The translations under genes and the position numbers were made by a program. From Nitrospinaceae bacterium (GTDB taxonomy: Bacteria > Nitrospinota > Nitrospinia > Nitrospinales > Nitrospinaceae): a stretch of 64,000 bases of DNA. Below the pieces are notes generated by a model, which was not told the DNA's origin, made no database searches, and saw only the letters and a list, made by a program, of their open reading frames with translations. The stretch covers positions 1,888,001 to 1,952,000 of the forward strand of contig OZ245011.1 of the NCBI GenBank assembly GCA_965223665.1, read 5' to 3'. Of the stretch, positions 2,998-58,528 are shown piece after piece. Numbering within the stretch: position 1 is the first letter of the stretch; every line of letters starts with the position of its first letter.

Positions 2998-3018
2998 GTG
3001 AACTCTCTCCGAAAAAAA

Positions 3019-27495: not shown

Positions 27496-27666
27496 CCCTA
27501 CTAAAAAATTTTTCAAAGATTCATTTCAAAGAGGCGAATGGCCGTTCCTATTTTAGCTGGCTTAAAAGGGTTTTCATCCACATCAAAATTTGAATAGCCT
27601 CTTTAAATATTTTCAACCGTTCAAAAGTGATTGAAGAAAATTAAAAATTTCTTCGGGGGGAATCAC

Positions 27667-29214
27667 ATGCAAAGGGCATTTATATTATTCGTGGCTTTGA
27701 TGTTGCCATTCGTTTTTAACTCGCCGGCACTTGCCATCACCGATACATTTTCTAACCCCGACGACAGTTATGGCCGAAGTACCTCCCCCTCCACAAACTT
27801 TGGAACCGAAGCAAGTGTCATTTCCGATGGAGTGGCACAAGATCCATCCAATGGAAATTTTGGAGAAGTGGTTGGAATTTTAAAATGGAATATTTCCAGC
27901 ATACCGGCAACGGCAACTGTGTCCAGTGCTTCCATTACGGTAAATCTCACCAACAACAGTTCCGGGGATTATAATTTTTTAACTCAAACTGGAGCCTGGA
28001 CCGAAGGAAGTGTCGCCTGGAACAACTTTAATTTTGGCGGAACCGTTTTAGGGAGCATTCCCGCGTTTGCTTTCGGAAGCACCACCGTCGTCTTGAATGC
28101 TTCGGGAATTGCCCTGATTCAGGGTTGGGTGGACGGTTCCATTTCTAATGATGGAATTCTTATTCGCACCAGCGGCACCAACAACAGCATTGCCTTTGAC
28201 TCCAAAGACTCCTCTGGTTCACCTGCAACTTTAGAAGTGGTTTACACCAATGACCCCATTGGAGATGGAGACCCACCGGAAATAGATAGTGTGATTGTGG
28301 CCGATGATGCATGCGGCACAGGATGCGACACTTTAACAATATTGGGTTCAAACTTAAGGGATATCAGCAACGTGAACGACATTCCCGATGTCCGGCTGGC
28401 AGGGTCTTCAGCCCTTCCTTTGAATGCAGGGGATCCCGGAACCACCGAAACGGTCATCGTGGATCTTTCAGGAGTCAATCATCCGGGGGACGGCAGTCAC
28501 CGATTAAATTTTTCCAATTTGAGTGGAGACACTTCGATCAGTGTCACCATTGGTGCGCAAGGACCTGCGGGACCGCCAGGACCTCCCGGGGATTCTTTTG
28601 CCGGTCTAAGCTGTACAGCGAACTCCGTCTGTGGTAACGGCGTTGTAGAAGCGGGGGGACCCCTTCTGGGATTTTCCGCTGAGGGGAATCTGATTTGCCA
28701 AAATCAGGAAGAGTGTGATGACGGCAACACTATTAATTTCGACGGATGTGAACCCAACTGCACCTTATGTGGAGCCGATACCTTTGAGCCTAACGACACC
28801 CAGGCGACTGCATTTTTTCTTGGCACCATCACCGATGCAGACGACGATGGAGATTCCATATTAGGAACGCTGAATCCTATAGAAGAGGAAGATTGGTATT
28901 CCGTCGCCATCACCGAGGACAATCCCCTCGCTACCATTGACCCTCGATTATCCTGGTCGGTGGAATTGACTGCGTGTGTTTATTATCAGTGCACCCAGGG
29001 AACCACCGAAGTCACCTGCAATTCGGGAACCGCCGATGTAGCCCCCAACGGCGCTTTGGGTTGCTGCAGCATCAGTGGACCTTCAGGAACTACCCAACAA
29101 ATTCAACCGAACTGCCTGGGCGGAATCGACGATAGCGGCACCGCATACTTCCGAGCACTAAAAACCCCTGTCCAGACCCAGTGTCGGCCCTTCATTTTGG
29201 ATTGGACCCCCTAA
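27667..29214 (+). CDS. Secreted DNRLRE-like domain protein, type D (IPT-like domain + short collagen + Myxococcus Cys-rich repeat + Cys-rich/PPC-like domain); paralog 5
   Basis: Family N-domain; PEIDSV...LTILGSNL; GAQGPAGPPGPPG; CGNGVVE...EECDDGN...DGC; DTFEPND...EEDWY. Confidence 0.88.
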   Translation: MQRAFILFVALMLPFVFNSPALAITDTFSNPDDSYGRSTSPSTNFGTEASVISDGVAQDPSNGNFGEVVGILKWNISSIPATATVSSASITVNLTNNSSGDYNFLTQTGAWTEGSVAWNNFNFGGTVLGSIPAFAFGSTTVVLNASGIALIQGWVDGSISNDGILIRTSGTNNSIAFDSKDSSGSPATLEVVYTNDPIGDGDPPEIDSVIVADDACGTGCDTLTILGSNLRDISNVNDIPDVRLAGSSALPLNAGDPGTTETVIVDLSGVNHPGDGSHRLNFSNLSGDTSISVTIGAQGPAGPPGPPGDSFAGLSCTANSVCGNGVVEAGGPLLGFSAEGNLICQNQEECDDGNTINFDGCEPNCTLCGADTFEPNDTQATAFFLGTITDADDDGDSILGTLNPIEEEDWYSVAITEDNPLATIDPRLSWSVELTACVYYQCTQGTTEVTCNSGTADVAPNGALGCCSISGPSGTTQQIQPNCLGGIDDSGTAYFRALKTPVQTQCRPFILDWTP

Positions 29215-29382: not shown

Positions 29383-31131
29383 ATGGAAAACCAATGGAAT
29401 TCTTTTGTAGAGCTGTTACAGGTGAGAGCACAAGTCCAACCCAATGATCGCGCTTTTACTTTTTTAGATGAAAAAGGAAATGAAGAAGCCATCCTTACCT
29501 TTGAAGAACTCGATCGCCAGGCAAAAGCAGTGGCAGGGTATCTTCAATCGACGACCCAACCCGGGGAACGCGTTTTACTGTTTTTCCCACCGGGTCTGGA
29601 TTTCATCGTAGGATTCTTTGGTTGTTTATACGCTCGCTTAATCGCAATTCCGGTGTTTCCGGGAAAACGAGAACAATCATTAAACAATATTCAAAGAATT
29701 ATTTCAGATGCTCAGGTCTCCGTTTGCCTGACCAACAAATCTTTTTACAAGAAAATTAATCACTTTCATTTTAAAAATACGGACTTGGTAAACCTTCCCT
29801 GGAAGTGCGTGGACGACCTGGCTTTCCAATGTGAATATGATTGGAATCAACCCCTCATTCAAAAAACCGATTTGGCATTTCTTCAATATACTTCAGGATC
29901 TACCGGCAACCCTAAAGGTGTGATGGTGAGCCACCAGAATATTTTGCATAACTCTGAAATGATTCGCGTGGGATTTGGGCACACACAAAAAACTGCATTT
30001 GTAGGATGGCTGCCTTTATTTCATGACATGGGATTGATCGGAAATGTTTTACAACCTTTATATTTGGGAATTCAAAGCGTCATGATGGCCCCATCCACTT
30101 TTGTATCCAACCCTTACCGTTGGCTGCAGGCGATTTCCAAATACAGAGCCACTACCAGTGGCGGACCTAACTTCGCGTTTGATCTTTGTGCGCATACGGT
30201 CACTCCGGAAGAAGTCGCCACTCTGGACCTTAGCAGTTGGGACAATGCTTTTATAGGAGCGGAACCCATTTTCTCCTGCACCATGAAAAATTTTTACAAT
30301 GTTTTTAAATCCTGTGGGTTCAAATGGAATTCTTTTTATCCTTGTTATGGAATGGCCGAGGCCACCTTGTTTATCTCCGGAGCAAACAAAAGCAATCCAC
30401 CAACTTTACTGACCCAAACCACCAGCGAGTGCAATGACAATTCGGACCCATCGGAAATTTCGGAAATTATTGAAACCGAGAAAACCTATATTGGTTGTGG
30501 CCGAAGCTGGCTCGACCAGGAATACTTAATTGTCAATCCGGATACCTCGATTCCCTGTGATGAGAATGAGGAAGGAGAAGTTTGGGTTCGAGGAAACAAT
30601 GTGGCTCAAGGGTATTGGAATCAACCGGAACAAACTAAAAAAACTTTTCACAATTATATCCTGGGCAATGAAGCCGGTCCTTTTTTACGCACAGGAGATT
30701 TAGGATTTATTAATAACGGTGAGCTATTCATCACGGGAAGGTTAAAAGATATTATCATTATCAACGGTCGTAATTACTATCCTCAAGATATAGAAAAAAC
30801 TGTTGAGAAGTGCCATCCCTCGATACGCATCCACAGCACCGCGGCTTTTTCAATTGAACAAAAAGCCAGCGAACGCCTGGCCATTGGATGCGAAGTCAAA
30901 AGAGAATTTGTAAGAAATCATAATCTGGAAGAAATCGTTTCATCCGTGCGCTCTTCCATAATGGAAAACCACGCGCTCGACACCACGGCGGTGGTTCTCC
31001 TGAAACCGGGAAGTATTCCTAAAACTTCCAGCAATAAAATCAGAAGAAGTCTTTGTAAACAGTATTTCAACAATGGTGAATTCAAGAAAGTAGGTCAATG
31101 GGAAGAGCGGGCACAAGCCGTTCCTCTATAA
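29383..31131 (+). CDS. Fatty acyl-AMP ligase (FAAL)
   Basis: LQYTSGSTGNPKGV, WLPLFHDMGLIG, GGPNFAFD, CYGMAEATL, LRTGDLG, GRNYYPQDIE, IPKTSSNKI; no fused ACP. Confidence 0.92.
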   Translation: MENQWNSFVELLQVRAQVQPNDRAFTFLDEKGNEEAILTFEELDRQAKAVAGYLQSTTQPGERVLLFFPPGLDFIVGFFGCLYARLIAIPVFPGKREQSLNNIQRIISDAQVSVCLTNKSFYKKINHFHFKNTDLVNLPWKCVDDLAFQCEYDWNQPLIQKTDLAFLQYTSGSTGNPKGVMVSHQNILHNSEMIRVGFGHTQKTAFVGWLPLFHDMGLIGNVLQPLYLGIQSVMMAPSTFVSNPYRWLQAISKYRATTSGGPNFAFDLCAHTVTPEEVATLDLSSWDNAFIGAEPIFSCTMKNFYNVFKSCGFKWNSFYPCYGMAEATLFISGANKSNPPTLLTQTTSECNDNSDPSEISEIIETEKTYIGCGRSWLDQEYLIVNPDTSIPCDENEEGEVWVRGNNVAQGYWNQPEQTKKTFHNYILGNEAGPFLRTGDLGFINNGELFITGRLKDIIIINGRNYYPQDIEKTVEKCHPSIRIHSTAAFSIEQKASERLAIGCEVKREFVRNHNLEEIVSSVRSSIMENHALDTTAVVLLKPGSIPKTSSNKIRRSLCKQYFNNGEFKKVGQWEERAQAVPL

Positions 31132-31193
31132 GAACGAACATACAAACTCGTTGAAAATTTCGAGTTGACTTAAAAGTGGGGAGAAAACTTTAA

Positions 31194-34154
31194 ATGAAAA
31201 ACAAACAGGATTATCATTCCTATTGCAAACCCAAGCTAGCTGAACTGTTGTCCGCTCTCAAGCTGGACATATGCGCAAAGTCTGCGCAGGGAAATTATAT
31301 TCAGGACGAGTCCAACCATCAATACCTTGACCTGGTTAGTGGATTTGGCTCAGCGATTTTAGGCCACAACCATCCGGACATTGTTAAAACGGCAACGGAT
31401 TCTTTACAAAATAATCTTCCTGTTAATGTTCAGGGAACCGTGCGCAGTTCGTCCGCAAAGCTTGCGAAACGGTTGAATGAATTACTGCCAACCAACAGCG
31501 AAGCGTATTGCGTCAATTTTTCAAACAGTGGAACCGAAAGTATTGAAGCGGCCATCAAGCATGCGTATAAAGTCCACTTTGAAAAAGTCCAACGCAAATA
31601 TGAACATCTAAGTCGCGTACTCAACGATTTCTACTATAAAGTTGAAAACATGCCGAACCGCCCGGAATTACCCGGGAAGAATAAGAGCCTGGTCGACTTT
31701 CGCGATGACCTGGACGAATACAATTTAGAGCAGTTTGAAACGTTTCAAAATAATCCTGTCATGATTGGCTTTAAAGGCGGGTTTCACGGAAAAACAATGT
31801 CCAGCCTGAAAGTGACATTCAACAAATCGTTCCGGGAAATTTTTGAAGGTTTATCATCCATCAAACCGGTTTTTATTGATCCCAAAACTCCGGAACGCAT
31901 TGAGGAAATTCGAGACGAACAAACCTGTCTGTTTCTTTATCCGGAATTGGTCGGAAACAAAATTGAATTGCGCACCACTAAAATCACCAAAGTGATCGGT
32001 CTGATTTTTGAAATCATCATGGGAGAAGGCGGTATCATTCCCTTGAGTGACCGCACTCTCGAATTTTTAGCCAACGAGCATGAGCGCCTTGAAATTCCTT
32101 ATATCATTGATGAAATTCAAACCGGTTGTGGTCGTACGGGAAGGGTCTTTGGTTTTGCAGACACAGCCCTTTCCAAAATTTCACCGGAATACATCACACT
32201 CAGTAAAGCGCTGGGTGGCGGCATTTCTAAAATCGGTGCGACTCTGATCCGTAAAAATATTTATGAGCATGACTTTGGAATTTTACACACTTCCACGTTT
32301 GGCGAAGATGACTTATCCAGTGAAGTGGCCTTAAAGACCCTGAACTTGCTTACAGAAAATAACAACGCCCAGTTAAAAGATGTTAAGGAAAAAGGTCAAA
32401 CTATTATAGATGGACTCAGAGATTTACAAAGTGAGTTCCCGGAAATTATTAAAGATGTACGCGGACGCGGGTTAATGATTGGTTTGGAATTTACCACATT
32501 GGAAGACCGCTCTCCCTTCTTTCGAGCTTCAGGGAAACAAGGCGTGCTTTCACTTTTAATCGCCAGCTACTTATTGCACTACCATCATATTCGAGTGCTG
32601 GCTCCCTTAACCAATATGCTGAAGGGGAATCCCGGTAAAGTTCGTTTATCCATTATCCGCATTCAACCTCCGCTCACGATCACCCATGAGGAAATCCAGA
32701 GATTGATTTCCGGGTTAAGAGAAGTTTGCAACATTATTCAAAATAATAATGAGTATTGTTTGATCGGTCATTTAATCGGCGCATCTTTAAGTTCCGAAGA
32801 ACGTAAAAACTGTGCCTCCTTTGAAGCTTACTGGCCCATCGTCGATCAGCCACGTCCTATGGATGCCCGCGCCGGGTTTGTGGTCAACCCGACCAATTTA
32901 ACCGTCCTCGCTGATTACTACTTCCCATCGTTTAAAGAATATTCCTGGGAAAAGAAAAATTTGCTCTCATGGTGGAATTGCGTCAGTCGATTCCTGGAGC
33001 CGGTCCATATCAGAAATGAGTACATTACTTCTAATGAATTCACCATTCAACTCAGCCTGGTTTTTGTTCCATACCTTCCTGAATATATTAACGCGAACAG
33101 AAAAGACCGTATTTTAGCAAAGGAAATGAGTGATAAGGTTCAGGATGCGGTGACGGTGGCCCGTGAATTGGGGGATGACAATATTCCTGTTTCTATCGTT
33201 GGTCTGGGAGGTTACACCTCCACCATCACTAAAAATGCATTGACGATTAATGATTATGAAATTCCTGTCACTACGGGAAATGCTTATACGACGGGCCTTG
33301 CTATTCAAGGTGTGATTTACGCGGCACAGGAAAAAAACATCGATATGAGTAAGGCGAAATTGGCCGTGGTCGGTGCCGGTGGAAATATTGGTTCCATTTT
33401 AGCTCAAATTTTAATTCCACGTGTGGAACAACTGGTATTAATCGGTAGCCAAAAACCAGGTAGTTTGGAACGTCTGCAAAACACACGTCAGCTATGCCTG
33501 CAGGAATTGTTGAAAAATATCCAGGCTGAAAAGCATTCCGGACAAAGTTTTGAAAATACGCAAATCCGGGGAGTGGGTTACCAGATTTATGAATACCTGG
33601 AACGGAATCATTCCGAAACAACGGAAGCCATCAGAAAAGGATTGGTCAGCGATACAATAACGCCCGATCAAATGGAAGCTTTTGAAAAAGAGTTATTCGA
33701 AGGTCCTTCCGGAATACGAATTGACCTATCGACATCCATTCAAGATTCTTACGATTGCGATATTATTATTTTATCAACCAACTCAGAAAACCCGGATCTC
33801 ATTAAGCCGGAATTCTATAAACACAATGCCATCTTATGTTGTGTTTCCCTACCTTCGAATCTCAGCAAAAACTTTAAGAACAGCAACGGTCAGTTAGCCT
33901 TCGATGGCAGTTTAGCCCGGTTACCGGAAGGATCGGAAATCAACTTCGTCGGGTTGCCCAGGCAAGGCCTGTCCTTCGGCTGTTTATCCGAAACCTTGGT
34001 CCTTGCTTTCGAAGGCCATAATCACTCCTTCAGTAAAGGGGAAATTAAATCTCAACAGGTTTACGAGATTATGGAGAAAGGTCTATTAAACGGCTTCGAT
34101 TTAGGAAGTTTAAAGTTTAACGAAAAAGTATTACTGGAAAGAAGTCCTCATTAA
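31194..34154 (+). CDS. Class III aminotransferase fused to acyl-ACP-reductase-like domain (TamH-like)
   Basis: N-domain: YLDLVSGFG, NSGTESIEAA, FHGKT, DEIQTGCGRTG, LSKALGGG (PLP Lys); C-domain: GLGGYTS, TTGNAYT, VVGAGGNIG, FGCLSETLVLAFEG. Confidence 0.88.
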   Translation: MKNKQDYHSYCKPKLAELLSALKLDICAKSAQGNYIQDESNHQYLDLVSGFGSAILGHNHPDIVKTATDSLQNNLPVNVQGTVRSSSAKLAKRLNELLPTNSEAYCVNFSNSGTESIEAAIKHAYKVHFEKVQRKYEHLSRVLNDFYYKVENMPNRPELPGKNKSLVDFRDDLDEYNLEQFETFQNNPVMIGFKGGFHGKTMSSLKVTFNKSFREIFEGLSSIKPVFIDPKTPERIEEIRDEQTCLFLYPELVGNKIELRTTKITKVIGLIFEIIMGEGGIIPLSDRTLEFLANEHERLEIPYIIDEIQTGCGRTGRVFGFADTALSKISPEYITLSKALGGGISKIGATLIRKNIYEHDFGILHTSTFGEDDLSSEVALKTLNLLTENNNAQLKDVKEKGQTIIDGLRDLQSEFPEIIKDVRGRGLMIGLEFTTLEDRSPFFRASGKQGVLSLLIASYLLHYHHIRVLAPLTNMLKGNPGKVRLSIIRIQPPLTITHEEIQRLISGLREVCNIIQNNNEYCLIGHLIGASLSSEERKNCASFEAYWPIVDQPRPMDARAGFVVNPTNLTVLADYYFPSFKEYSWEKKNLLSWWNCVSRFLEPVHIRNEYITSNEFTIQLSLVFVPYLPEYINANRKDRILAKEMSDKVQDAVTVARELGDDNIPVSIVGLGGYTSTITKNALTINDYEIPVTTGNAYTTGLAIQGVIYAAQEKNIDMSKAKLAVVGAGGNIGSILAQILIPRVEQLVLIGSQKPGSLERLQNTRQLCLQELLKNIQAEKHSGQSFENTQIRGVGYQIYEYLERNHSETTEAIRKGLVSDTITPDQMEAFEKELFEGPSGIRIDLSTSIQDSYDCDIIILSTNSENPDLIKPEFYKHNAILCCVSLPSNLSKNFKNSNGQLAFDGSLARLPEGSEINFVGLPRQGLSFGCLSETLVLAFEGHNHSFSKGEIKSQQVYEIMEKGLLNGFDLGSLKFNEKVLLERSPH

Positions 34155-34176
34155 TCATTTTTACATCGGGAATGTC

Positions 34177-36021
34177 ATGTTTGATTTTAACGCAAAGCGA
34201 AAAGAAACCACATTTAAGGCATACAGTTCCATAACAAGTGTTGCCGATATCATTGAAAATCAGCTGCCCGCTTATGGCAACCGGGATGTACTTCGGTTTG
34301 ACCTGGGCAAACATTATGGAAGCTTGACCTTTGATGTTTATCTAAACTACCTCAAAGCCATGATCCAGTTTTTCACGCGGAATAATATCGAGCAAAAAGT
34401 CATCAGCACGTTTTGTAAGAACCGCATTGAATGGGACATGGTGGGAATGGCCACCTTCTATCGAGCGAACGCTTTATATCCGCTGGACACTAAAACGAAT
34501 CTGGTGGAACTTGAACATTTGCTCAAGCTGAATCCGCCCGATTATATGCTGATCGCGAAAGCTCAATTAACAAAAATGCGCCAATTAAAATCCAAATTGA
34601 ATCTCAAAACAATTTTTATCGTTGCGGATTTAATGGATGTCTTTGAAGATTTGAATTGTGAGGACGTGGATATCGCACCGGATGAAATTAAAGTGTCCAG
34701 CATATTTTCTGAATTCGATATGAACCAACCGGTCCAGAAAAGTGCCCTGCTGGATGATCCTAATACCATTCTGGGTCATTACCCGACTTCCGGGACCACC
34801 AGTCTGCCAAAAATCGTAGCGATCTCTCACGGCAATATTGTTGCTGAAGTTAACGAAGCCGTCGATGTCATCAACTTAAGACACAATGAAGATTTGCTGA
34901 ACATTGGACCTTATACGCATATAGCGACTTTGGTGGAATTCCTGGTAACGAAAACCCGCGGGTTTTGTGTCACCTATTTCACACGCGAGCCGGATGACGA
35001 TGACGTTTTGGAAGATGAAATTAAAAAATTAAAATCTCAGGGCGTTCGCATTAAAGCGTTAATGGCGGTGCCCAAGTTTTGGATTTATTTAATGAAAGAA
35101 GTGCTGGAGGAAATGAAAAACAAACCCGTCCTGCACGAGTTGTACAAACATTTGATCTCCATCGAAAAAAGCGGCAAGCTATACGACATCGGGACCCTGG
35201 ACAAAGCCAAGCTGGCCGCCACTCGCATCCTGTTGCGTAATAAAATGGGCGGCTATTTCAGTTACGGAATTTCTTCTTCCATGAAACTGGATGGAGCGAT
35301 CGTTGAAATTTTTGGGAAACTGGGAATCACGGTCATTGATATTTATGGGGCCACTGAATGCGCGGGTATCATCTCCCGTAACCGCCTGGATGATCTCAAC
35401 CCTGGTTCCTGTGGACGTATCATTAAACCTTTGGAGCACCGGTTGGTGAATCGTAAAATTATTCCCGGCATTCAAAAGCCGGTAGGTCATCTCGAAGTCA
35501 AAGGTCCAACCGTGGCACCTGCTTACCTGGGAGAGTCGAGGGGATTATTATTGAGCGATGACGGATTTTACTCAACTGGAGATTTGTGCTGGGTCGATGA
35601 CCAGGGTTGGCTGCATATCGTGGGTCGTGAAAAAGAACTGACACTTTGGAAGGATGGAACTTATATTGATCCACAATATCTATCCAATCTGATGGTGCGC
35701 AGTATTTATATCAAGGATGCGATGGTAACGCAGGTGAACCCCGAGGATGATTACCTCAGCGTTTTTGTTTTTCCGGATGAAAAACGTTTTCGCAAAGATC
35801 CAAAGATTAAGAAACAAATTGAGACCGGTCTCAACTGGGACACGGCGTTGCGCCACCGAATTGAAGAGGCAATCGATTACACTCAGTCCGTGGCAAAAGT
35901 TACTGCTAGACTGAGCAAGGAGCACATTTTTATTTTGCCTAAAAAATTAGAGCGTACGCCAACGCATAAAATTAAATTTATTTTTGAACGTCAACGTATC
36001 CATTTAGCACGCCCTATTTAA
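34177..36021 (+). CDS. AMP-binding adenylating enzyme (acyl-CoA ligase-like, divergent)
   Basis: TSGTTSLPK, YGATE, FYSTGD, GREKE, LERTPTHKIK. Confidence 0.88.
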   Translation: MFDFNAKRKETTFKAYSSITSVADIIENQLPAYGNRDVLRFDLGKHYGSLTFDVYLNYLKAMIQFFTRNNIEQKVISTFCKNRIEWDMVGMATFYRANALYPLDTKTNLVELEHLLKLNPPDYMLIAKAQLTKMRQLKSKLNLKTIFIVADLMDVFEDLNCEDVDIAPDEIKVSSIFSEFDMNQPVQKSALLDDPNTILGHYPTSGTTSLPKIVAISHGNIVAEVNEAVDVINLRHNEDLLNIGPYTHIATLVEFLVTKTRGFCVTYFTREPDDDDVLEDEIKKLKSQGVRIKALMAVPKFWIYLMKEVLEEMKNKPVLHELYKHLISIEKSGKLYDIGTLDKAKLAATRILLRNKMGGYFSYGISSSMKLDGAIVEIFGKLGITVIDIYGATECAGIISRNRLDDLNPGSCGRIIKPLEHRLVNRKIIPGIQKPVGHLEVKGPTVAPAYLGESRGLLLSDDGFYSTGDLCWVDDQGWLHIVGREKELTLWKDGTYIDPQYLSNLMVRSIYIKDAMVTQVNPEDDYLSVFVFPDEKRFRKDPKIKKQIETGLNWDTALRHRIEEAIDYTQSVAKVTARLSKEHIFILPKKLERTPTHKIKFIFERQRIHLARPI

Positions 36022-36055
36022 GTGCTAATGTAACCTTTTTAATACACACATTATT

Positions 36056-36853
36056 ATGAAAACAAAAATCAGTTATCTATTATCAGGAATGCTTCTTATC
36101 CTTCTATTCAATGGCACCCATGCCGTATCCAAAAACAGTACGGACAAAGGGAACCAAGTGGTTCAGGCTGTGGATAACCACGAAGCAGGTTATATCAATT
36201 TAAAGTCGGATGTCACGATGATCCTTGAGGATAAAAAAGGCAAAACACGCAAACGGTTTTTTAAATACACGATGCTGGAATCTGAACCGCTGGGGGATAA
36301 ACGAAAATTTGTCTTTGAACGCCCGCGTGATATTAAAGGCACTGCGGTTCTGATCCATTCCAAAGTTGTGGAAGATGATGCGCAATGGATTTTTCTGCCT
36401 GCGTTTAAACGAGTCAAACGAATCTCCAGCACCAACAAAAGCACTCCCTTCATGGGAAGCGAGTTCAGTTATGAAGATTTATCTTCCCAGGAGCTGGAGA
36501 AATATGAAAACCACTATGTCCGCCACGATGCCTGTGACGACAAAGAATGCGATGTGATCGAACGCGTCCCAAATTTTCCTCACTCGCTTTACAGCAAGCT
36601 GGTGGTTTATGTGGACAAGAAGGATAACCGCTATCGAAAAATTATTTACTTTGATAAAAAAGGGAAAAAGATTAAAACTCAAACTCTGAGTGATTATAAA
36701 TTGTATTCCGATCGTTACTTGCTACCGAACAAAATGGTAATGGTGAATCATAAGAATGGAAAGAAAACCACCATGCTTTGGGAAGACATCAAGTTAAAGA
36801 CAAACATAGTGAAAAGACATTTTAATGTGTCCGCTTTGAAGCGATCGCATTAA
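36056..36853 (+). CDS. LolA-like outer-membrane lipoprotein-sorting protein
   Basis: Signal peptide; PRDIKGT, DDAQWIFLPAFKRVKRI, FMGSEFSYED. Confidence 0.9.
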   Translation: MKTKISYLLSGMLLILLFNGTHAVSKNSTDKGNQVVQAVDNHEAGYINLKSDVTMILEDKKGKTRKRFFKYTMLESEPLGDKRKFVFERPRDIKGTAVLIHSKVVEDDAQWIFLPAFKRVKRISSTNKSTPFMGSEFSYEDLSSQELEKYENHYVRHDACDDKECDVIERVPNFPHSLYSKLVVYVDKKDNRYRKIIYFDKKGKKIKTQTLSDYKLYSDRYLLPNKMVMVNHKNGKKTTMLWEDIKLKTNIVKRHFNVSALKRSH

Positions 36854-36863
36854 CAAGGAGGCA

Positions 36864-36904
36864 GATGTGCTCCCCCTTTCATGAAGGGGGCTGGGGGGAT
36901 TTTT
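36864..36904 (-). repeat. REP-like repeat, short form
   Basis: Reverse complement AAAATCCCCCCAGCCCCCTTCATGAAAGGGGGAGCACATC. Confidence 0.8.
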
Positions 36905-36952
36905 CCTTAGTTACTTTTAAATTGTTAACATGACTGAACCGCGACTCCAATT

Positions 36953-39253
36953 ATGTATATAACCACACTCATCCGTTGGCGAAGGACGATATTGTTAATG
37001 TGGGCGTGTGTTCTTTTGGCATTCGCCGGGATTATAGTGAACAAACTCTTTTTGTCGTCGGATCCTTCCATTGATAATTCCGTCGGCATTTGGTTCAACA
37101 AAACCGATCCGGATTTAATCACATACGAACAATACAACGATACTTTCGGGGAAAAGGAATGGAGTATTCTGCTTTTGCAAACGGATTCCATTTACAGCCC
37201 CGAATTCTTATCGGATCTTGATTCCATCACGGAAAAAATCAGTGAACTCAAAAACGTTGTCAAGGTCACCTCAATCACCAATGTTCGCGATAATTTTTTG
37301 ACCGACGATGGCTCTCTGGATTACAGACGACTCTATTCGGAGCAGGTGCCCACCGATTCCAAGGCGCTTCAACAATTTCAGGATCAACTGAAACGTAATC
37401 CGATTTTTGAGCGAAGTCTCATTATAAAAAATGATGAGACTTCCACTGCGCTGCTTATTCAAAATGACAATTTCATCAATGACCCGACCGAATACCGGAT
37501 TCAACTGGTCGACGGCATCACCCACATTGTCAATGAACACGCCAGTATAAAAAACTTTGCGCTGGCCGGAACCACCGTGGTTAATGCAGAACTTAACCGT
37601 GCGTCTAAACGGGACGTGTTTGTTTTTTACTCTTTGATCACCGTGTTGCTGACCTTCATCGGTTTTTATATATTGAAGAGTCTGCGCAATTTACTGGTGA
37701 TGTATTCCGTAGTAGTCACCAGTTCCATCCCGGCGATGGGCATGCTGGCCGCGCTGAACATTCCTTACAATATGATCACCGTCATGCTGCCCACCATCTT
37801 AATTGCGCTTTCGGTAGCGGGAGTCGTTCACATAATTACGGAGTTTCATCTTTCCCGTTTTAAACAATCGAGTGAGGCGGCCATCGCCACAACCTTGAGC
37901 CGATTGTTTAAGCCCACCGTCTGGACGACGGTCACTACAATTGCCGGGTTCAGTTCTTTCACCACCAGTAATGTGTTTCCCGTTTTTCAGTTGGGCTTGT
38001 TCTCCGCGGTCGGGTTGTTCCTGGCGGGTGTCGCCAATTTAGTGATTGCCCCTCTTCTATTGCTTATGCTTTGGCCGGACCGAATTCAATCCCCCGAGCC
38101 ATTCAAAAAACCCAACTCTCTGAACCGTTGGCATAACTCGAATGGATTTCGCTTTGGAGTTTTATTGTGTACGTTGATCCTGCTGCTGCCTGTTTTCAGC
38201 TTGCCGCGACTGGAAGTCGACACGAACTATATAAAATTCTTTTCGGAATCGCATCCGACGTCTCAATCCTATGACCTGATTAAAAAAGTAGGGTTTGCGC
38301 AGAACCCGATTGTCCTGCAATTAAAATATTCAGACGATCAACCCTACTCCGCTTCACAACAAATTAAAGGAACTGTTGCATTTGAGAAAGCGCTAAAAAA
38401 GTTGCCGGAAGTGGTGAAAATTTTATCCTCCAGTGACTTCCTGGAAGAAATCAATAAAGCGTTTAATGATCAAGAAGCGAAACCGCTGGACCGGTACAAC
38501 AAATCTCAGATCGAGCAGTTGCTGTTACTGGGAGAACTCAGTGGTAATGACGATCTCACCGATTTCATTCTTTCTGGAGCCACCGATGTTCAGATCATTG
38601 TCATGACGCAATACATGAGTTCGCGAGAGCTCGATGCGTTTAAAGACAAGCTGTTCAATTTACAAAATCAGTTTCTTCCTAAAGAAGTGCATATGGATGT
38701 GACGGGTACCACCACCTTGTGGGCCAACATGGATACGCAGGTCAGCAACACTCAGTTTTATTCTCTGTTGTTTATCACTTTATTCCTGTTGGTGTTGTTG
38801 CCGCTGATATTTGGCTCTCTCACGCTGGGGCTGATCGGGTTGGCTGTTAACATTTTGCCACTGGCGATTACATTGGGCACTATGGCGTTTCTCGATATCA
38901 AAATTAATATTGCTACTGCACTCATTGGTGGAATTTCGTTGGGCGTAGTGGTGGATGACACCATTCACTTCATTTCTCGAATCATTCAAAACCAAAAAAG
39001 CGGACAAAGCATTACCGAGGCGGTAGAAAACTCTATTCAAACCATCGGCAAAAGTATTATTTATACCACCTTGATTTTAATTGTCGGGTTTTCCTGTATG
39101 GCATCCTCAAACTTTCTACCCAGCGCGCACTTTGGAATTTTTATTTCCTTGTCCATCTTCCTGGCGTTACTACTGGATTTATTTTGCGTTCCGGCTTTAT
39201 TAAAATCGTTTCCGGAACTCACAAAACGAAGAAGGCTGGCCGAACAGTCTTGA
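36953..39253 (+). CDS. MMPL/RND-family lipid exporter
   Basis: Two repeats of TM + periplasmic loop + 5 TM; TTIAGF, GVVVDDTIH, GF...SNF. Confidence 0.92.
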   Translation: MYITTLIRWRRTILLMWACVLLAFAGIIVNKLFLSSDPSIDNSVGIWFNKTDPDLITYEQYNDTFGEKEWSILLLQTDSIYSPEFLSDLDSITEKISELKNVVKVTSITNVRDNFLTDDGSLDYRRLYSEQVPTDSKALQQFQDQLKRNPIFERSLIIKNDETSTALLIQNDNFINDPTEYRIQLVDGITHIVNEHASIKNFALAGTTVVNAELNRASKRDVFVFYSLITVLLTFIGFYILKSLRNLLVMYSVVVTSSIPAMGMLAALNIPYNMITVMLPTILIALSVAGVVHIITEFHLSRFKQSSEAAIATTLSRLFKPTVWTTVTTIAGFSSFTTSNVFPVFQLGLFSAVGLFLAGVANLVIAPLLLLMLWPDRIQSPEPFKKPNSLNRWHNSNGFRFGVLLCTLILLLPVFSLPRLEVDTNYIKFFSESHPTSQSYDLIKKVGFAQNPIVLQLKYSDDQPYSASQQIKGTVAFEKALKKLPEVVKILSSSDFLEEINKAFNDQEAKPLDRYNKSQIEQLLLLGELSGNDDLTDFILSGATDVQIIVMTQYMSSRELDAFKDKLFNLQNQFLPKEVHMDVTGTTTLWANMDTQVSNTQFYSLLFITLFLLVLLPLIFGSLTLGLIGLAVNILPLAITLGTMAFLDIKINIATALIGGISLGVVVDDTIHFISRIIQNQKSGQSITEAVENSIQTIGKSIIYTTLILIVGFSCMASSNFLPSAHFGIFISLSIFLALLLDLFCVPALLKSFPELTKRRRLAEQS

Positions 39254-39301
39254 TTTTTTTGGGGAATGATATAAAGTCAGAATCACAGAGGGGGGCAAAG
39301 C

Positions 39302-39730
39302 ATGATTCTGGAAAACCAAATAGACATAGACGCACCACAGGACCGAGTTTGGAAAATCACCATCGATGTTGAATCCTGGCCGCAATGGTCACCGGCTATG
39401 GAAAGAATTGTTCGCGAAGACAAAGGCGAGTTCCAGGTCGGAAGCACCGCACTCATCAAACAAAAAATGATTCCCGAAACCCGGTGGGTGGTCACCAGTT
39501 GCACTCCCCCGGAAAGTTTCTCCTGGAAAGCCAAGGTGCTGGGCATTGAAATGATAGCCACGCATTTTCTCCTTCCCCGCGAATCCGGCGTCACCAGTAT
39601 GCTGCAATTGGAAATGGTAGGCGCTATGGCAGCAATTTTAGGTCCGGCCATCAAAGATCAAGTCACCAAGGCCCTGGCCGAAGAAAACCACGGCCTCAAA
39701 CAATTTTGCGAAGCGGAAGAAAAAGGGTAA
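39302..39730 (+). CDS. SRPBCC/polyketide cyclase-like lipid-binding protein
   Basis: IDIDAPQDRVW...DVESWPQW; C-terminal GLKQFCE. Confidence 0.88.
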   Translation: MILENQIDIDAPQDRVWKITIDVESWPQWSPAMERIVREDKGEFQVGSTALIKQKMIPETRWVVTSCTPPESFSWKAKVLGIEMIATHFLLPRESGVTSMLQLEMVGAMAAILGPAIKDQVTKALAEENHGLKQFCEAEEKG

Positions 39731-39802: not shown

Positions 39803-40450
39803 ATGTATTGGGGTTTTAAAAATATCTATGGTGAAAGGTTAGATAGGTTGAACAACGCTCCTCCATTTAAGGAAATAGTAGAGAAAATTAACGAGGAGAT
39901 GAAGGTAGTCTGCTGTCATTGGATAGAGGCCCAGGATGATCCCATAGATTATATTTTTGAGCCACCGTTTCACCGCATCGTTTTTTGCGTAGAAGTTAGT
40001 GAAGACCTCTTTGATATATTCTTTAATTCCAAAAATGGATATCGTGCTCAATATTTTATTTCTCCGGAACAAGGCCTTATAGAAAACTGTAAACTTATCA
40101 AGACGGTCACTCCGAAACTTATGGAAGAGATGCAAAATATTAGTGATTGTAAAGGTATAGACGACTGGGCAAGGAAATCATTAGAGGAAGAGTCAGCAAA
40201 AGCTTGGCGCCTCGAAATAGGAAAAGAACTCTGTACAAATTGTAAAATTGACAGTGAAGACGCAAAATCAGAAATTAGAAATAATCGTTGGGAAATTTTT
40301 AACCATACGAATGCAGAAAAGGGTGTAAAAGCTCATTACTTTAATAAGATTCGTTTCTTCGGTGGTTTTTTAAATAAAAAATTTCAACCTTGGGTTGATA
40401 AGAAAAAATGGTGTCGGCACTGGGAAATCCACAAATGGGGTTTTTCTTAA
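39803..40450 (+). CDS. Hypothetical protein (AT-rich)
   Basis: 215-aa ORF, codon usage unlike the neighbours, no recognised motif. Confidence 0.7.
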   Translation: MYWGFKNIYGERLDRLNNAPPFKEIVEKINEEMKVVCCHWIEAQDDPIDYIFEPPFHRIVFCVEVSEDLFDIFFNSKNGYRAQYFISPEQGLIENCKLIKTVTPKLMEEMQNISDCKGIDDWARKSLEEESAKAWRLEIGKELCTNCKIDSEDAKSEIRNNRWEIFNHTNAEKGVKAHYFNKIRFFGGFLNKKFQPWVDKKKWCRHWEIHKWGFS

Positions 40451-40644: not shown

Positions 40645-40712
40645 GAGAAGTTTCTGCGAATTCAGTTTGCAGGAAAACACATCGCAAATCAATTTTGGGT
40701 GCAGCGTCACGC
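40645..40712 (-). repeat. Partial copy of the internal segment of the long repeat; overlaps the tetR stop codon
   Basis: Reverse complement GCGTGACGCTGCACCCAAAATTGATTTGCGATG aligns with 41441 GCGTGACGCTGCACCCAGAATTAATCTTCGATG. Confidence 0.75.
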
Positions 40713-41324
40713 GGCTTTCCTGAAGAGCATTTCGATGTAGGTTTTGTAGTGTTGAATCTGGTGGGTGACGATTTTGGGATCGTTCAGGGAGCGGGCGAGG
40801 ATAAACGCGCCTTCGATTAAAACTAAAAACTGATCGGCCAGGGATTCGAGATGAACTTTTTTTGCAGGTGGGTTTTCCTTTGCAATTTTTTTTAAGCGTT
40901 TGGTCAATTCCCTCCGCCAGGTTAAAAAGACGTTATTGATAATCTCCCGTGTTTCTTCATCAAACAATTGCAACTCGTAAATGTAAGACGCCAGCAAACA
41001 TCCCGGCGAAGGTTTTTCAAATTCGGAAAAGTATTCTTCCCACAATCCGATCATGATCAGATATTGCTGTAGCGGATCGCTGCTCAATTTTTCGGCGCGG
41101 GCTAAGTTTCCCTGCATGATGTCAATGTCACTTTGGGCATAACGTTCGATCAGCTTGAATGCTAAATCGTTTTTACTTTTAAAGTGATGAAAAAACGCAC
41201 CCTTCGTCACGTCCATTGAATCGATCAAGCGGTCGATAGAAACCGCCGAAAACCCGTTGTCCAGGATCAAAGTCTGCGCCGTATCCAAAATTTTTTCGCG
41301 GGTGGCCTCCCCTTTTTTTGACAT
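40707..41324 (-). CDS. TetR/AcrR family transcriptional regulator
   Basis: TREKILDTA...GFSAVSID...VTKGAFFHHFKSK HTH; GCLL; GGAGG RBS. Confidence 0.94.
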   Translation of the reverse strand: MSKKGEATREKILDTAQTLILDNGFSAVSIDRLIDSMDVTKGAFFHHFKSKNDLAFKLIERYAQSDIDIMQGNLARAEKLSSDPLQQYLIMIGLWEEYFSEFEKPSPGCLLASYIYELQLFDEETREIINNVFLTWRRELTKRLKKIAKENPPAKKVHLESLADQFLVLIEGAFILARSLNDPKIVTHQIQHYKTYIEMLFRKAA

Positions 41325-41635: not shown

Positions 41636-41798
41636 AAAACATATCAAATAGTATGAAAAATGTCCAACAACTTAAAAAAAAATCAAAATTAATTAACATA
41701 AATACTTATTTTTAAACACTTTATAAAAAACATACTAAATAGTATTGACTTTTACGATTTCCTGCCTATAATTAAACATACTGAATGGTATGTTTAAT
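41636..41798. promoter_or_regulatory. Three probable TetR operators plus the desaturase promoter
   Basis: Perfect inverted repeat ATTAAACATAC-tgaatg-GTATGTTTAAT (41771-41798); degenerate copies at 41727-41748 and 41636-41657; TTGACT-16bp-TATAAT at 41745-41772. Confidence 0.75.
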
Positions 41799-46177: not shown

Positions 46178-46499
46178 CCTTAGAACCGTAAGACGGAAAA
46201 GCCAAAATATTTTTATCGACTATCCAAAATGAACCCACCCGAACCTACAATCGAAACATCCTTTTTCCTTTAATTAAATTGGGAAAAGCCTTGTTTTTCG
46301 CCGCACTACCTTTTTTGTAGTACAATCAACCACAACAAAAACATCGCTTCTACGATATGGGTCGTTTATGAAATCAGGCACCATTCCTCCAAAAAGTGTT
46401 TCGCTGTATTGGATGGGGTTTACAAATTCGATTGAGAAATTATTAGCTCCAATGCAAGGGAAAACTTTCTCTTTAATTCGTTTTCGGGGAGGAAACATC

Positions 46500-55448: not shown

Positions 55449-55465
55449 TTTGAAAAGGAAACTTA

Positions 55466-58508: not shown

Positions 58509-58528
58509 TTTAAAAGGAGGAACAAACT

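What the first reader, a model, noticed from the sequence alone, without database searches (positions are those of the whole stretch)
29383..39730. Orphan lipid biosynthetic cluster predicted to make and export a fatty-amine-derived compound
Seen: six co-oriented, closely spaced genes: FAAL, class III transaminase fused to a reductase, a second divergent adenylating enzyme, LolA-like protein, MMPL/RND exporter and SRPBCC. The reductase domain has the cyanobacterial acyl-ACP reductase signatures (TTGNxxT, Rossmann VVGAxGxIG, catalytic FxC). Known: in tambjamine YP1 biosynthesis the TamA adenylation-ACP and TamH transaminase-thioester-reductase convert a fatty acid to a long-chain amine. Inference: here there are no bipyrrole genes, so the amine may be condensed by the second ligase into an N-alkyl amide or similar and moved to the outer membrane. 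No ACP is encoded in the cluster, so the carrier must be borrowed or CoA used. The transaminase also has an insertion of about 60 aa after the EAAIK motif.
Basis: partly seen in the sequence, partly recalled or inferred. Interest (0 to 1): 0.74.

Follow-up and report, generated by a model that had tools for sequence, protein, structure and literature searches.

The report
Fatty-amine lipid synthesis and export cluster
A six-gene operon in a Nitrospinaceae genome combines a TamH-type enzyme, predicted to turn activated fatty acids into long-chain amines, with two fatty-acid-activating enzymes and a lipid export pair; its core recurs in many bacterial phyla, but no product is known.

Summary
Window 29383-39730 carries six co-oriented genes with gaps of 22-99 nt: FAAL, a 986-aa aminotransferase-reductase fusion, a second adenylating enzyme (ANL2), a LolA-like protein, an MMPL/RND transporter and an SRPBCC protein.

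The fusion has the architecture of the characterised TamH. Its N-terminal half is a CrmG-like class-III transaminase with the PLP lysine K338. Its C-terminal half is an acyl-ACP-reductase-like thioester reductase with TTGN, VVGAGGNIG and C930, confirmed by HMMs, PDB alignments and fold search.

- The cluster is not an orphan. The fusion-ANL2 pair is adjacent in 17 of 17 genome loci and 27 of 27 metagenome loci, from at least 7 phyla, usually with an MMPL gene.
- ANL2 is the most conserved, obligate partner, not a divergent extra.
- Many relatives encode a small ACP right after ANL2, always together with a FAAL-type ligase. The window lineage lost both secondarily and carries an unrelated PKS-loading-type FAAL.
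- The "60-aa insertion" is a feature shared with CrmG.

The most likely product is a long-chain primary amine, or its N-acyl amide, exported to the envelope. The end product is unresolved. I found no paper describing this cluster. It is a new variant of a known kind, and a good lead to an undescribed lipid.

The parts
29383..31131 (+). Fatty acyl-AMP ligase (FAAL), stand-alone, PKS-loading type. The ORF is open from a TTG at 29281; the likely start is the ATG at 29383.
   Evidence: Pfam AMP-binding E 5e-68 plus a DIP2-like C-terminal domain. NCBIfam FAAL subfamily PRK05850 scores 446.7 bits, below its 775 cut-off. PDB: 7r7g 'Polyketide synthase' E 1.2e-171 over residues 4-574, 3kxw E 4e-145, FadD32 and FadD23 E ~1e-89. 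Only 26-29% identical to the FAAL-type ligase at this position in other loci. Found in 2 of 120 genomes of the phylum at high identity.
31194..32738 (+). TA domain of the fusion (aa 1-515): class-III PLP transaminase of the CrmG/TamH type, with a two-helix insertion at aa ~127-196.
   Evidence: Aminotran_3 aa 25-505. CrmG 5dds E 2.2e-55, aligned over 20-517 with K338 opposite the CrmG AKAIGGG lysine. Foldseek top hits are CrmG, TM-score (target) 0.78-0.81. K338 is invariant in A1.
32862..34154 (+). TR domain of the fusion (aa 557-986): acyl-ACP-reductase-like thioester reductase with TTGN 693-696, VVGAGGNIG 725-733 and catalytic-type C930.
   Evidence: TIGR04058 E 1.6e-13 and PigE N-terminal region E 5e-22. 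PDB 4ppm E 4e-9 and AAR 6jzq/6jzy E 5e-8, with C930 aligned to the AAR Cys. Domain-only model pLDDT 75.4, pTM 0.77. Foldseek top hit AAR 6jzy, E 1e-15, TM-score (target) 0.75, then carmabin TAD. Motif residues are invariant in A1 and A4.
34177..36021 (+). ANL2: 614-aa ACSL/COG1022-like adenylating enzyme, the obligate partner of the fusion.
   Evidence: AMP-binding E 5.8e-33. Best NCBIfam hit is the long-chain-fatty-acid-CoA ligase subfamily at 99 bits, far below its cut-off. Core motifs TSGTxxLPK, YGATE, TGD, GRxKEL and TPTHKIK are invariant or nearly so in 12 sequences. The 120 hits listed are mostly 609-652 aa (eight are longer or shorter) and none carries a PP-binding domain. It lies directly after the fusion in 17 of 17 and 27 of 27 loci.
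36056..36853 (+). LolA-like periplasmic lipid chaperone. Read by eye, the N-terminus looks like a Sec signal peptide without a lipobox Cys.
   Evidence: Pfam LolA_like 181.7 bits. N-terminus MKTKISYLLSGMLLILLFNGTHA. Present in 12 of 17 fully covered FAAL+ACP-type loci and 0 of 11 minimal loci.
36953..39253 (+). MMPL/HAE3-like RND inner-membrane transporter.
   Evidence: Pfam MMPL 104.9 bits and Sterol-sensing 33.1 bits. TIGR00921 HAE3 174 bits (cut-off 351.9) and HpnN-like 82.5 bits. An MMPL gene lies in 24 of 30 fully covered loci.
39302..39730 (+). SRPBCC (Polyketide_cyc2) small lipid-binding-fold protein, an accessory specific to this genus.
   Evidence: Pfam 47.6 bits. Found only in the window and L002 among 84 sources.
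39803..40450 (+). orf215: co-oriented ORF of no known family. It is doubtful that it belongs to the cluster.
   Evidence: No Pfam or NCBIfam hit, even at E<=1. Not found in L002 or any other locus.
40707..41324 (-). TetR-family regulator, convergent with the operon; a possible regulator.
   Evidence: TetR_N and TetR_C_13. A homologue lies at the same relative place in L002 (93%) and in L109.

Best explanation
This is a horizontally acquired operon that makes a long-chain amine-derived lipid and exports it to the cell envelope.

Proposed steps:
1. A fatty acid is adenylated by the FAAL and placed on a borrowed holo-ACP. The genome encodes only an AcpP-like ACP and one other.
2. The C-terminal AAR-type reductase domain of the fusion takes the acyl group onto Cys930 and reduces the thioester with NAD(P)H to a fatty aldehyde.
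3. The N-terminal CrmG/TamH-type transaminase (PLP on Lys338) converts the aldehyde to a primary fatty amine.
4. ANL2, which accompanies the fusion in every relative, most likely activates a second fatty acid and couples it to the amine, giving an N-alkyl fatty amide. The main alternative is that ANL2 only supplies acyl-CoA to the reductase, so that the free amine is the product.
5. The MMPL transporter takes the lipid out of the inner membrane and the soluble LolA-like protein carries it across the periplasm.

What is shown: gene content, domain identities, catalytic motifs, folds, conserved synteny and patchy distribution.
What is inferred from homologues (TamA/TamH, AAR, CrmG): the chemistry of steps 2 and 3.
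What is inferred from context only: the carrier, the role of ANL2, the final product and the direction of transport.

My odds: an amine is formed, about 0.75. End product: amide about 0.35, free amine about 0.3.
For: Domain and motif evidence for the fusion comes. Folds: the TA half is CrmG-like (TM-score, target-normalised, 0.78-0.81) and the TR half is AAR-like (E 1e-15, TM-score 0.75).

TamH has the same TA-linker-TR order, GxxGxxG and a catalytic Cys. With TamA it was shown to convert fatty acids to amines (PMC9594044, passages read). PigE and KecF are further characterised or proposed members of this fusion type (PMC8341465, abstract only; PMC6498172, passages).

The FAAL is very close to solved FAAL structures.

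Fusion and ANL2 are adjacent in 17 of 17 fusion-seeded genome loci (one, L013, with only a ~190-residue ANL2 match) and in 27 of 27 ANL2-seeded metagenome loci that have at least 3.1 kb upstream. MMPL is present in 24 of 30 fully covered loci.

Among the ORF families recurring in three or more of the 84 sources I recognised no acyltransferase, condensation or methyltransferase; most of the small ones were not scanned. On that reading the conserved chemistry rests on the fusion, ANL2 and, where present, FAAL plus ACP.

The FAAL-type ligase and an ACP or ACP-like ORF occur together in 17 of 17 fully covered loci and are absent together in 13 of 13. This fits FAAL->ACP->reductase and leaves ANL2 with a separate task.

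LolA-like plus RND as a dedicated outer-membrane lipid route has a precedent in the aryl-polyene cluster, ApeL/ApeM (PMC8253772, passages). An MMPL-LolA-like fusion protein also exists (TOL_3187, PMC6304351, passages).
Against: - There is no experiment on any member of this clade.
- TamH did not accept C12-CoA and needed its own ANL-ACP partner (PMC9594044). This cluster has no ACP.
- By sequence ANL2 looks like a long-chain acyl-CoA synthetase (source names; atlas). No amide-forming activity is known to me for that subfamily (recalled).
- In relatives the ACP gene always sits right after ANL2, which resembles a split TamA (ANL-ACP). That would favour ANL2 as the loader of the reductase rather than an amide synthetase.
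- The FAAL-ACP co-occurrence rests on related loci and only a few independent gains or losses (tree).
- NCBIfam scores for the FAAL, AAR, PigE and HAE3 models are all below their curated cut-offs.
- RND direction and destination are assumed.
Confidence: 0.55

Rival explanations
1. The amine chemistry is the same, but ANL2 is the supplier. It makes acyl-CoA, or loads an ACP as the ANL half of TamA does, for the reductase domain. The end product is then the free primary fatty amine, a cationic amphiphile exported by MMPL/LolA as an envelope lipid, surfactant or antimicrobial. FAAL (with an ACP in relatives) would be a second, optional feeding route.
For: ANL2 is ACSL/COG1022-like, with all thioester-ligase core motifs. 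Minimal loci hold only the fusion, ANL2 and MMPL in 9 of 11 cases, with no other activating enzyme. ANL2 followed at once by an ACP (38 of 66 loci with at least 450 bp downstream) mirrors the TamA ANL-ACP didomain (PMC9594044). From recall, AAR accepts acyl-CoA as well as acyl-ACP.
Against: FAAL plus ACP becomes redundant in the 17 loci that have them. The ACP never occurs without the FAAL-type ligase (0 of 30). TamH rejected acyl-CoA (PMC9594044). From general knowledge, free long-chain amines are membrane-toxic.
Confidence: 0.3
2. The fusion processes a polyketide-like or otherwise modified acyl intermediate, as PigE and KecF do, and the product is a cyclised alkaloid or other small secreted metabolite rather than a membrane lipid.
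For: PigE and KecF, both TA/AAR-like fusions, act on beta-keto or polyketide thioesters (PMC8341465, abstract; PMC6498172, passages). One relative (Kangiella, L007) carries a FabH-like KS, a desaturase and a ferredoxin-domain gene in the cluster.
Against: No KS, KR, cyclase or oxidase is present in the window cluster or among the recurrent families. The FAAL and the ACSL-like ANL2 point to plain fatty acids. The LolA-like/MMPL pair suits very hydrophobic cargo.
Confidence: 0.06
3. The genes work in the catabolic or uptake direction. Environmental alkylamines or fatty aldehydes are deaminated or oxidised to acyl thioesters and fatty acids are activated for beta-oxidation, with MMPL/LolA handling hydrophobic substrates.
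For: Transaminases are reversible. An MMPL-LolA-like protein was strongly induced on long-chain alkanes in Thalassolituus (PMC6304351, passages). A TetR regulator lies next to the cluster.
Against: From recall, AAR-type enzymes are known only as thioester reductases and RND pumps export. FAALs serve biosynthetic loading. There are no beta-oxidation genes in the cluster.
Confidence: 0.05
4. The six genes are neighbours by chance and do not form one functional unit.
For: No RNA data were available. The promoter scan was at chance level.
Against: Gaps are 22-99 nt on a single strand. The order is identical in a second species. The core synteny holds across phyla.
Confidence: 0.02

Closest known systems
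PtTamH with PtTamA (tambjamine YP1 pathway, Pseudoalteromonas tunicata; PMC9594044, passages read)
   Same: One polypeptide with an N-terminal class-III transaminase (~500 aa), a ~50-aa linker and a C-terminal AAR-like thioester reductase carrying GxxGxxG and a catalytic Cys. It works next to an adenylating enzyme and converts a fatty acid via an aldehyde to a primary amine.
   Different: TamA carries its own ACP, while this cluster has none. There are two adenylases here instead of one, no bipyrrole (MBC) genes, and a dedicated LolA-like/MMPL export pair. The distant full-length relatives are 26-31% identical.
PigE (prodigiosin MAP pathway; PDB 4ppm; NCBIfam NF053554; PMC8341465, abstract only)
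   Same: It contains both an AAR-like reductase region and a class-III transaminase. Both halves match the window protein.
   Different: The domain order is reversed (reductase N-terminal). PigE lacks the two-helix insertion, since its alignment breaks between query residues 124 and 189. The score is 297.8 bits against a cut-off of 850. Its substrate is a beta-keto thioester.
KecF (koreenceine cluster, Pseudomonas koreensis; PMC6498172, passages read)
   Same: An aminotransferase with a C-terminal COG5322/AAR-like domain, proposed to reduce an ACP-bound acyl chain and transaminate the aldehyde.
   Different: KecF sits in a type II PKS cluster that makes tetrahydropyridine alkaloids. No KS or KR genes are present here.
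Cyanobacterial acyl-ACP reductase (SeAAR, PDB 6jzq/6jzy; TIGR04058)
   Same: Best structural match of the reductase domain. It shares the TTGN motif, the Rossmann glycines and the aligned catalytic Cys.
   Different: AAR is a stand-alone 341-aa protein that hands its aldehyde to ADO to make alkanes. Here the domain is fused to a transaminase and carries an extra ~80-aa helical insertion (aa ~757-836). The TIGR04058 score is 50.7 bits against a cut-off of 449.7.
CrmG (caerulomycin aminotransferase, PDB 5dds)
   Same: Best sequence and fold match of the transaminase half, including the inserted helices. From recall, it is an aldehyde-aminating omega-transaminase.
   Different: CrmG is a stand-alone enzyme with a bipyridine aldehyde substrate; identity is 27-29%.
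CarI terminal amidation domain, TAD (PDB 9e50 and others; bioRxiv 10.1101/2024.10.28.620694, passages read)
   Same: An AAR-like two-domain fold with an invariant Thr-Thr-Gly and a Cys reached by the carrier's phosphopantetheine arm. It is the second-best fold match.
   Different: TAD ends NRPS modules, binds NAD, and is proposed to form primary amides. It is not fused to a transaminase. Identity is 13-15%.
ApeL/ApeM/ApeN of aryl-polyene clusters (PMC8253772, passages read) and the HpnN hopanoid transporter
   Same: A LolA-like chaperone plus an RND/MMPL-type transporter, encoded inside a lipid biosynthetic cluster and proposed to move the product to the outer membrane. HpnN-type models match the window transporter weakly.
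   Different: No LolB-like partner was found here. The cargo and biosynthetic genes are unrelated. No direct sequence comparison with ApeL or ApeM was made.

Membership tests
TamH-type transaminase-thioester reductase fusion | N-terminal class-III PLP transaminase with a catalytic lysine | tested here: met
   Aminotran_3 E 6.6e-65. K338 is invariant in A1 and aligns to the CrmG and PigE lysine. The fold is CrmG-like.
TamH-type transaminase-thioester reductase fusion | C-terminal AAR-like reductase with a GxxGxxG-type nucleotide motif and a catalytic Cys, placed after a ~50-aa linker | tested here: met
   G727/G730/G733, and C930 aligned to the AAR Cys. The TA half ends at ~515 and the TR half starts at ~557.
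TamH-type transaminase-thioester reductase fusion | Converts carrier-bound fatty acyl thioester to aldehyde and then to amine | not testable with these tools
   Needs biochemistry. Shown for PtTamH only (PMC9594044).
Tambjamine/prodiginine pathway | ANL-ACP partner (TamA) and bipyrrole (MBC) genes in the cluster | tested here: not met
   No PP-binding ORF in the window. No pyrrole-pathway families among the window ORFs scanned.
PigE (NCBIfam NF053554 equivalog) | Score above the 850-bit cut-off and the order reductase then transaminase | tested here: not met
   297.8 bits in 5 stretches, with the order reversed.
Cyanobacterial AAR (TIGR04058 equivalog) | Score above 449.7 bits; stand-alone protein partnered with aldehyde-deformylating oxygenase | tested here: not met
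   50.7 bits. Fused to a transaminase. No ADO-type family among the window ORFs. The fold and the catalytic Cys are shared.
Fatty acyl-AMP ligase (FAAL) | Close full-length similarity to proven FAALs (FadD32, FadD23, FadD28, Legionella and E. coli FAAL) | tested here: met
   PDB hits: 7r7g E 1e-171 over 4-574, 3kxw 4e-145, FadD23 2.5e-90, FadD32 7e-89, 3pbk 7.5e-73. The top five NCBIfam hits are an NRPS/PKS subfamily model followed by four FAAL models, all below their curated cut-offs.
Fatty acyl-AMP ligase (FAAL) | FAAL-specific insertion that blocks CoA ligation; transfer to a holo-ACP | not tested
   The insertion was not mapped residue by residue. The near-gapless alignment to 7r7g suggests it is present. 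The acceptor is unknown.
ANL superfamily, long-chain acyl-CoA synthetase-like (ANL2) | Core motifs A3, A5, A7, A8 and A10 | tested here: met
   TSGTxxLPK, YGATE, TGD, GRxKEL and TPTHKIK are conserved in 12 sequences. I assigned the motif names from recall.
ANL superfamily, long-chain acyl-CoA synthetase-like (ANL2) | Membership of a named equivalog (FadD, FadD11, Aas and others) | tested here: not met
   The best hit is 99 bits against a cut-off of 476, and all others are lower. Best PDB E-value is 1.6e-16.
LolA_like (PF17131) | Pfam score above the gathering score | tested here: met
   181.7 bits against 30.
MMPL / HAE3 RND transporters | Pfam MMPL above the gathering score; TIGR00921 HAE3 above its cut-off | tested here: inconclusive
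   MMPL 104.9 bits against 20.5, met. TIGR00921 174.2 bits against 351.9, not met.

The most novel reading that the evidence does not exclude
The fusion-ANL2 core, found in at least seven phyla, makes a so far undescribed class of envelope lipid: N-acyl long-chain amines. These would be two-chain, ceramide-like amides made without serine palmitoyltransferase, delivered to the outer membrane by a dedicated MMPL/LolA route.

A bolder variant borrows from what is proposed for the related amidation domain TAD. The acyl-Cys930 intermediate of the reductase domain would itself be attacked by the amine made next door, so that one fusion protein both makes the amine and forms the amide. The two adenylases would then feed the two acyl streams.
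Probability: 0.3. Interest if true: 0.8.

Novelty: new variant of a known kind. Interest (0 to 1): 0.55.

Why it matters
Fatty amines and their amides are not recognised bacterial membrane lipids. The only proven bacterial route to them (TamA/TamH, and the Tab enzymes in Streptomyces) serves pigment tails.

Here the same chemistry sits in a compact module that is conserved across phyla, is horizontally mobile, and has its own envelope export genes. That points to a product with a structural or surface role that lipidomics has missed or has filed under 'unidentified aminolipid'.

The module occurs in cultured, harmless marine bacteria (Kangiella), so the question can be tested directly. The enzymes are also of practical interest for one-pot conversion of fatty acids to amines, especially the variants that work without a dedicated carrier protein.

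Tried and rejected
- Earlier scan notes by place and by sequence (fusion, ANL2) returned nothing. Searches by words gave only generic TamH-type notes.
- Eight literature searches found no paper on a cluster with this gene content. MIBiG, antiSMASH and cblaster were not available.
- The promoter and terminator scan was uninformative. It found 21 promoter-like sites against 24.6 expected and 26 terminator-like sites against 14.4, with none at an obvious operon end.
- Rfam and tRNA scans of the window found nothing.
- The ESM atlas search for ANL2 gave only generic acyl-CoA-synthetase-like clusters.
- A LuxE/LuxC-like carrier-free hand-off was considered. Neither adenylase has a conserved C-terminal Cys, and both active sites are buried, so I rate it unlikely. 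The complex prediction was not run: the chains exceed the size limit untrimmed, and enzyme-carrier pairs are poor targets.
- The 1490-aa FAAL-fusion protein P0043 comes from an arthropod assembly and lacks the end of the ligase. I treat it as a probable gene-model artefact, not as a Rosetta-stone fusion.
- Apparent MMPL-fusion single ORFs in the high-GC loci L014 and L015 are probably ORF run-on.
- The Kangiella 'aminolipid' literature search gave nothing usable.
Full report
OBSERVATION

ORF listing and Pfam/NCBIfam scans confirm six co-oriented genes on the + strand:
- FAAL, 29281/29383-31131
- a 986-aa fusion protein, 31194-34154
- a second adenylating enzyme, here called ANL2, 34177-36021
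- a LolA_like protein, 36056-36853
- an MMPL/HAE3-like RND transporter, 36953-39253
- an SRPBCC protein, 39302-39730

The gaps between them are 62, 22, 34, 99 and 48 nt. A seventh co-oriented ORF (39803-40450) has no family, even at E<=1, and is absent from the sister genome. A convergent TetR gene follows at 40707-41324.

THE FUSION ENZYME

The N-terminal half is a class-III aminotransferase (Aminotran_3, aa 25-505, E 6.6e-65). Scanned alone, the C-terminal 466 aa match the N-terminal region of PigE (E 5e-22) and the cyanobacterial acyl-ACP reductase model TIGR04058 (E 1.6e-13). Both scores are far below the curated cut-offs.

In an alignment of 11 relatives with 45-65% identity (A1) the following residues are invariant:
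- the PLP lysine K338 (LSKALGGG)
- T693/G695/N696 (TTGN)
- G727/G730/G733 (VVGAGGNIG)
- G929/C930

phmmer against PDB sequences aligns C930 with the cysteine of the AAR segment FACFAEAM and with the corresponding PigE cysteine.

An AlphaFold model of the whole protein (pLDDT 77.6) finds CrmG as its best fold match (TM-score, target-normalised, 0.78-0.81). A model of aa 557-986 alone (pLDDT 75.4, pTM 0.77) finds AAR first (6jzy, E 1e-15, TM-score 0.75). The carmabin terminal amidation domain comes second.

It is conserved in the family and aligns continuously with CrmG, but not with PigE. It is modelled as two long helices. It is therefore a CrmG/TamH-type trait rather than a peculiarity.

The published description of PtTamH matches this architecture: TA 1-500, a ~50-aa linker, TR 547-941, AAR-like, GxxGxxG and Cys887. 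PtTamH makes amines only from TamA-bound acyl chains, not from C12-CoA (PMC9594044, passages read).

THE TWO ADENYLASES

The first gene is a bona fide FAAL. Its best PDB matches are a PKS FAAL-type domain (7r7g, E 1.2e-171 over residues 4-574), 3kxw, FadD23, FadD32 and the E. coli FAAL.

ANL2 has all the ANL core motifs but lies far from any named equivalog or solved structure. Sources call its relatives long-chain acyl-CoA synthetases.

NOT AN ORPHAN

The fusion has more than 1253 database hits. Its top 120 hits are 45-95% identical, most of them over 97-100% of the query, and nearly all are unnamed metagenomic proteins.

A scan of one genome per species returned 17 loci with full-length relatives at 43-95% identity. 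By record title they come from Gammaproteobacteria, Nitrospinaceae, Nitrospirota, Bryobacterales, Gemmatimonadota, Polyangiaceae and Spirochaetia. Protein source names add Desulfobulbaceae, Planctomycetota and Roseihalotalea.

Pairing of the fusion with ANL2:
- ANL2 lies directly downstream of the fusion in all 17 genome loci. In one of them, L013, the match covers only ~190 residues.
- ANL2 is better conserved than the fusion: 53-77% against 43-65% identity.
- An independent ANL2-seeded metagenome scan gave 66 loci. In 27 of the 27 with at least 3.1 kb upstream, the fusion lies directly upstream.

Of 84 sources examined, 81 have an ANL2 match, and 30 are covered for at least 2 kb upstream of the fusion and 2.5 kb downstream of ANL2. 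Among these 30, MMPL is present in 24 and LolA-like in 14. Among the ORF families recurring in three or more sources I recognised no acyltransferase, condensation or tailoring family; most of the small ones were not scanned. The only other frequent neighbours are histidine kinases (13 loci) and a ~400-aa protein of no family after LolA (5 loci).

TWO ARCHITECTURES AND THE ACP

All-against-all clustering revealed a small ORF (85-103 aa) directly after ANL2. It scores Pfam PP-binding at E 1e-5 to 1e-7 and has an invariant Asp-Ser. With a profile of it, an ACP was found after ANL2 in 38 of the 66 loci that have at least 450 bp downstream.

The 30 fully covered loci split as follows:

| FAAL-type ligase | ACP | Loci |
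|---|---|---|
| present | present | 15 |
| absent | absent | 13 (includes the window and its sister genome) |
| present | absent | 2 |
| absent | present | 0 |

The two exceptions (L011, L109) have a small ORF at the ACP position with weak PP-binding similarity (E 0.0026 and 0.014, below the cut-off). The FAAL-type ligase and an ACP or ACP-like ORF therefore go together in 17 of 17 loci.

These loci are related, so this is not a statistical test. The ANL2 tree suggests only a handful of independent joint gains or losses.

Gene order is either ligase-fusion-ANL2-ACP-LolA-MMPL or fusion-ANL2-ACP-ligase-MMPL-LolA. Minimal loci are MMPL-fusion-ANL2 or fusion-ANL2-MMPL, without LolA (0 of 11).

THE WINDOW'S VARIANT

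In a quick maximum-likelihood tree of 49 ANL2 sequences, the window and L002 form a clade (support 100). That clade is sister to three ACP-bearing gammaproteobacterial or metagenomic loci (support 100), inside a 26-row clade of which 23 have the ACP (midpoint root, careful search not finished).

The missing ACP is therefore best read as a secondary loss. The 34-nt gap between ANL2 and the LolA-like gene leaves no room for a remnant.

The usual FAAL-type ligase is also missing from the window; the FAAL found at its position is only 26-29% identical to it. An SRPBCC gene was added as well.

In the phylum survey, ANL2 was found in 2 of 120 genomes: the window's own genome and its genus mate. The FAAL was found in the same two, plus one 32%-identical domain of a megasynthase. 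The whole operon thus looks horizontally acquired by this genus. No tRNA or RNA feature marks an insertion site in the window.

The genome has only two PP-binding ORFs: an AcpP-like one, and one inside an unrelated KS/ACP/flavoprotein cluster.

MECHANISM

Steps 2 and 3 (thioester to aldehyde to amine) rest on strong homology to TamH, AAR and CrmG. I give them about 0.75.

The carrier must be borrowed, or CoA is used.

The role of ANL2 is open. There are two readings.
- Amide-forming role. This is supported by the way the FAAL-type ligase and the ACP travel together as an optional loading module while ANL2 is universal, and by my not recognising any other condensing enzyme among the recurrent neighbours.
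- Supplier role (acyl-CoA, or ACP loading as in TamA). This is supported by ANL2's acyl-CoA-synthetase-like sequence, by the ACP gene always sitting right after it, and by the minimal loci, where it is the only activating enzyme.

I put the amide product at about 0.35 and the free amine at about 0.3.

Export by MMPL plus a soluble LolA-like protein is inferred from three points:
- the signal peptide without a lipobox, read by eye
- the ApeL/ApeM precedent (PMC8253772, passages read)
- the existence of an MMPL-LolA-like fusion protein (PMC6304351, passages read)

COMPARISON WITH THE KNOWN

The enzyme type is known:
- TamH is proven.
- PigE is shown to reduce and transaminate (PMC8341465, abstract only).
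- KecF is proposed (PMC6498172, passages read).

Streptomyces uses unrelated separate enzymes for the same conversion (bioRxiv 10.1101/2025.08.11.669332, passages read). The related TAD domain is proposed to make amides from an acyl-Cys intermediate (bioRxiv 10.1101/2024.10.28.620694, passages read).

What I did not find in print is this conserved module of fusion, ANL2, optional FAAL+ACP and MMPL/LolA, or any product for it.

Earlier notes of this scan describe TamH-type fusions in many genomes. One is a 968-aa fusion in an 'uncharacterised lipid gene cluster' (e1-2821943). This agrees with my reading, but it is not independent evidence.

VERDICT

- Observation: confirmed.
- Interpretation: partly supported.
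- Novelty: a new variant of a known kind.

The finding is a well-delimited, testable lead to an unknown amine-derived envelope lipid.

Noticed in passing
window 10184-11497, 11731-12957, 13323-14648, 15069-16217, 27631-29214, 43505-44350, 44484-46058(-), 46368-47549, 50343-51392, 51782-52834, 62520-63743: Eleven paralogous ORFs with an N-terminal CBM96 domain (E 1e-9 to 1e-16) flank the lipid operon on both sides. L002 has paralogues too. This is a striking local expansion of unknown meaning.
   Followed up: no
L085 (G000:C1:3174000-3189000): The genome's only other ACP sits in a minus-strand cluster of KS, ACP, two amine-oxidase/phytoene-desaturase-like flavoproteins, KR, a FabA-like dehydratase and an enoyl-reductase-like SDR. 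This may be a second specialised lipid pathway.
   Followed up: partly
window 41818-42561 (+), with a promoter-like site at 41745-41772: A fatty-acid-hydroxylase-family gene with a weak OlsE-like match (67 bits against a cut-off of 475). It lies just beyond the TetR gene and has the best sigma-70-like site of the region (11 of 12) in front of it. It could be a tailoring gene or unrelated.
   Followed up: no
L016 9971-13002 and L131 6959-9951: In the Spirochaetia-type loci the fusion is split into two adjacent ORFs: transaminase ~425 aa and reductase ~575 aa. A FadD11-like ligase lies upstream in place of a FAAL.
   Followed up: partly
window 33462-33701 (fusion aa ~757-836): A helical insertion of about 80 residues in the nucleotide-binding part of the reductase domain, absent from AAR (341 aa). 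It is shortened in the Bryobacterales and Polyangiaceae relatives.
   Followed up: no
P0043 (one search hit, 1490 aa): A protein annotated in a sea-spider assembly joins a FAAL-type ligase to the fusion. It is probably bacterial DNA with a merged gene model, because the ligase lacks its C-terminal end.
   Followed up: partly
L005 18363-19586, L011 18489-19685, L097 17174-18370, L127, L128: A ~400-aa protein of no Pfam family follows the LolA-like gene in five loci. It might be the outer-membrane end of the export route. It is absent from the window.
   Followed up: partly
window 1411-5555 (-) and 5723-6862 (-): A transglutaminase-like, Alpha-E and circularly permuted ATP-grasp gene set next to a gamma-glutamyltranspeptidase fragment (379 aa, matching profile positions 143-512 only).
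   Followed up: no
window 53312-59635 (+): An operon of three 2-oxoacid:ferredoxin oxidoreductase subunits, an ADP-forming acyl-CoA synthetase (CoA_binding/Succ_CoA_lig/ATP-grasp_5) and a Glu/Leu/Phe/Val dehydrogenase. It looks like an amino-acid or 2-oxoacid fermentation-type module.
   Followed up: no
L007 15119-21584 (Kangiella taiwanensis): The Kangiella version of the cluster also carries a ferredoxin-domain protein, a fatty-acid desaturase and a FabH-like KS III. This suggests chain tailoring in that lineage.
   Followed up: no
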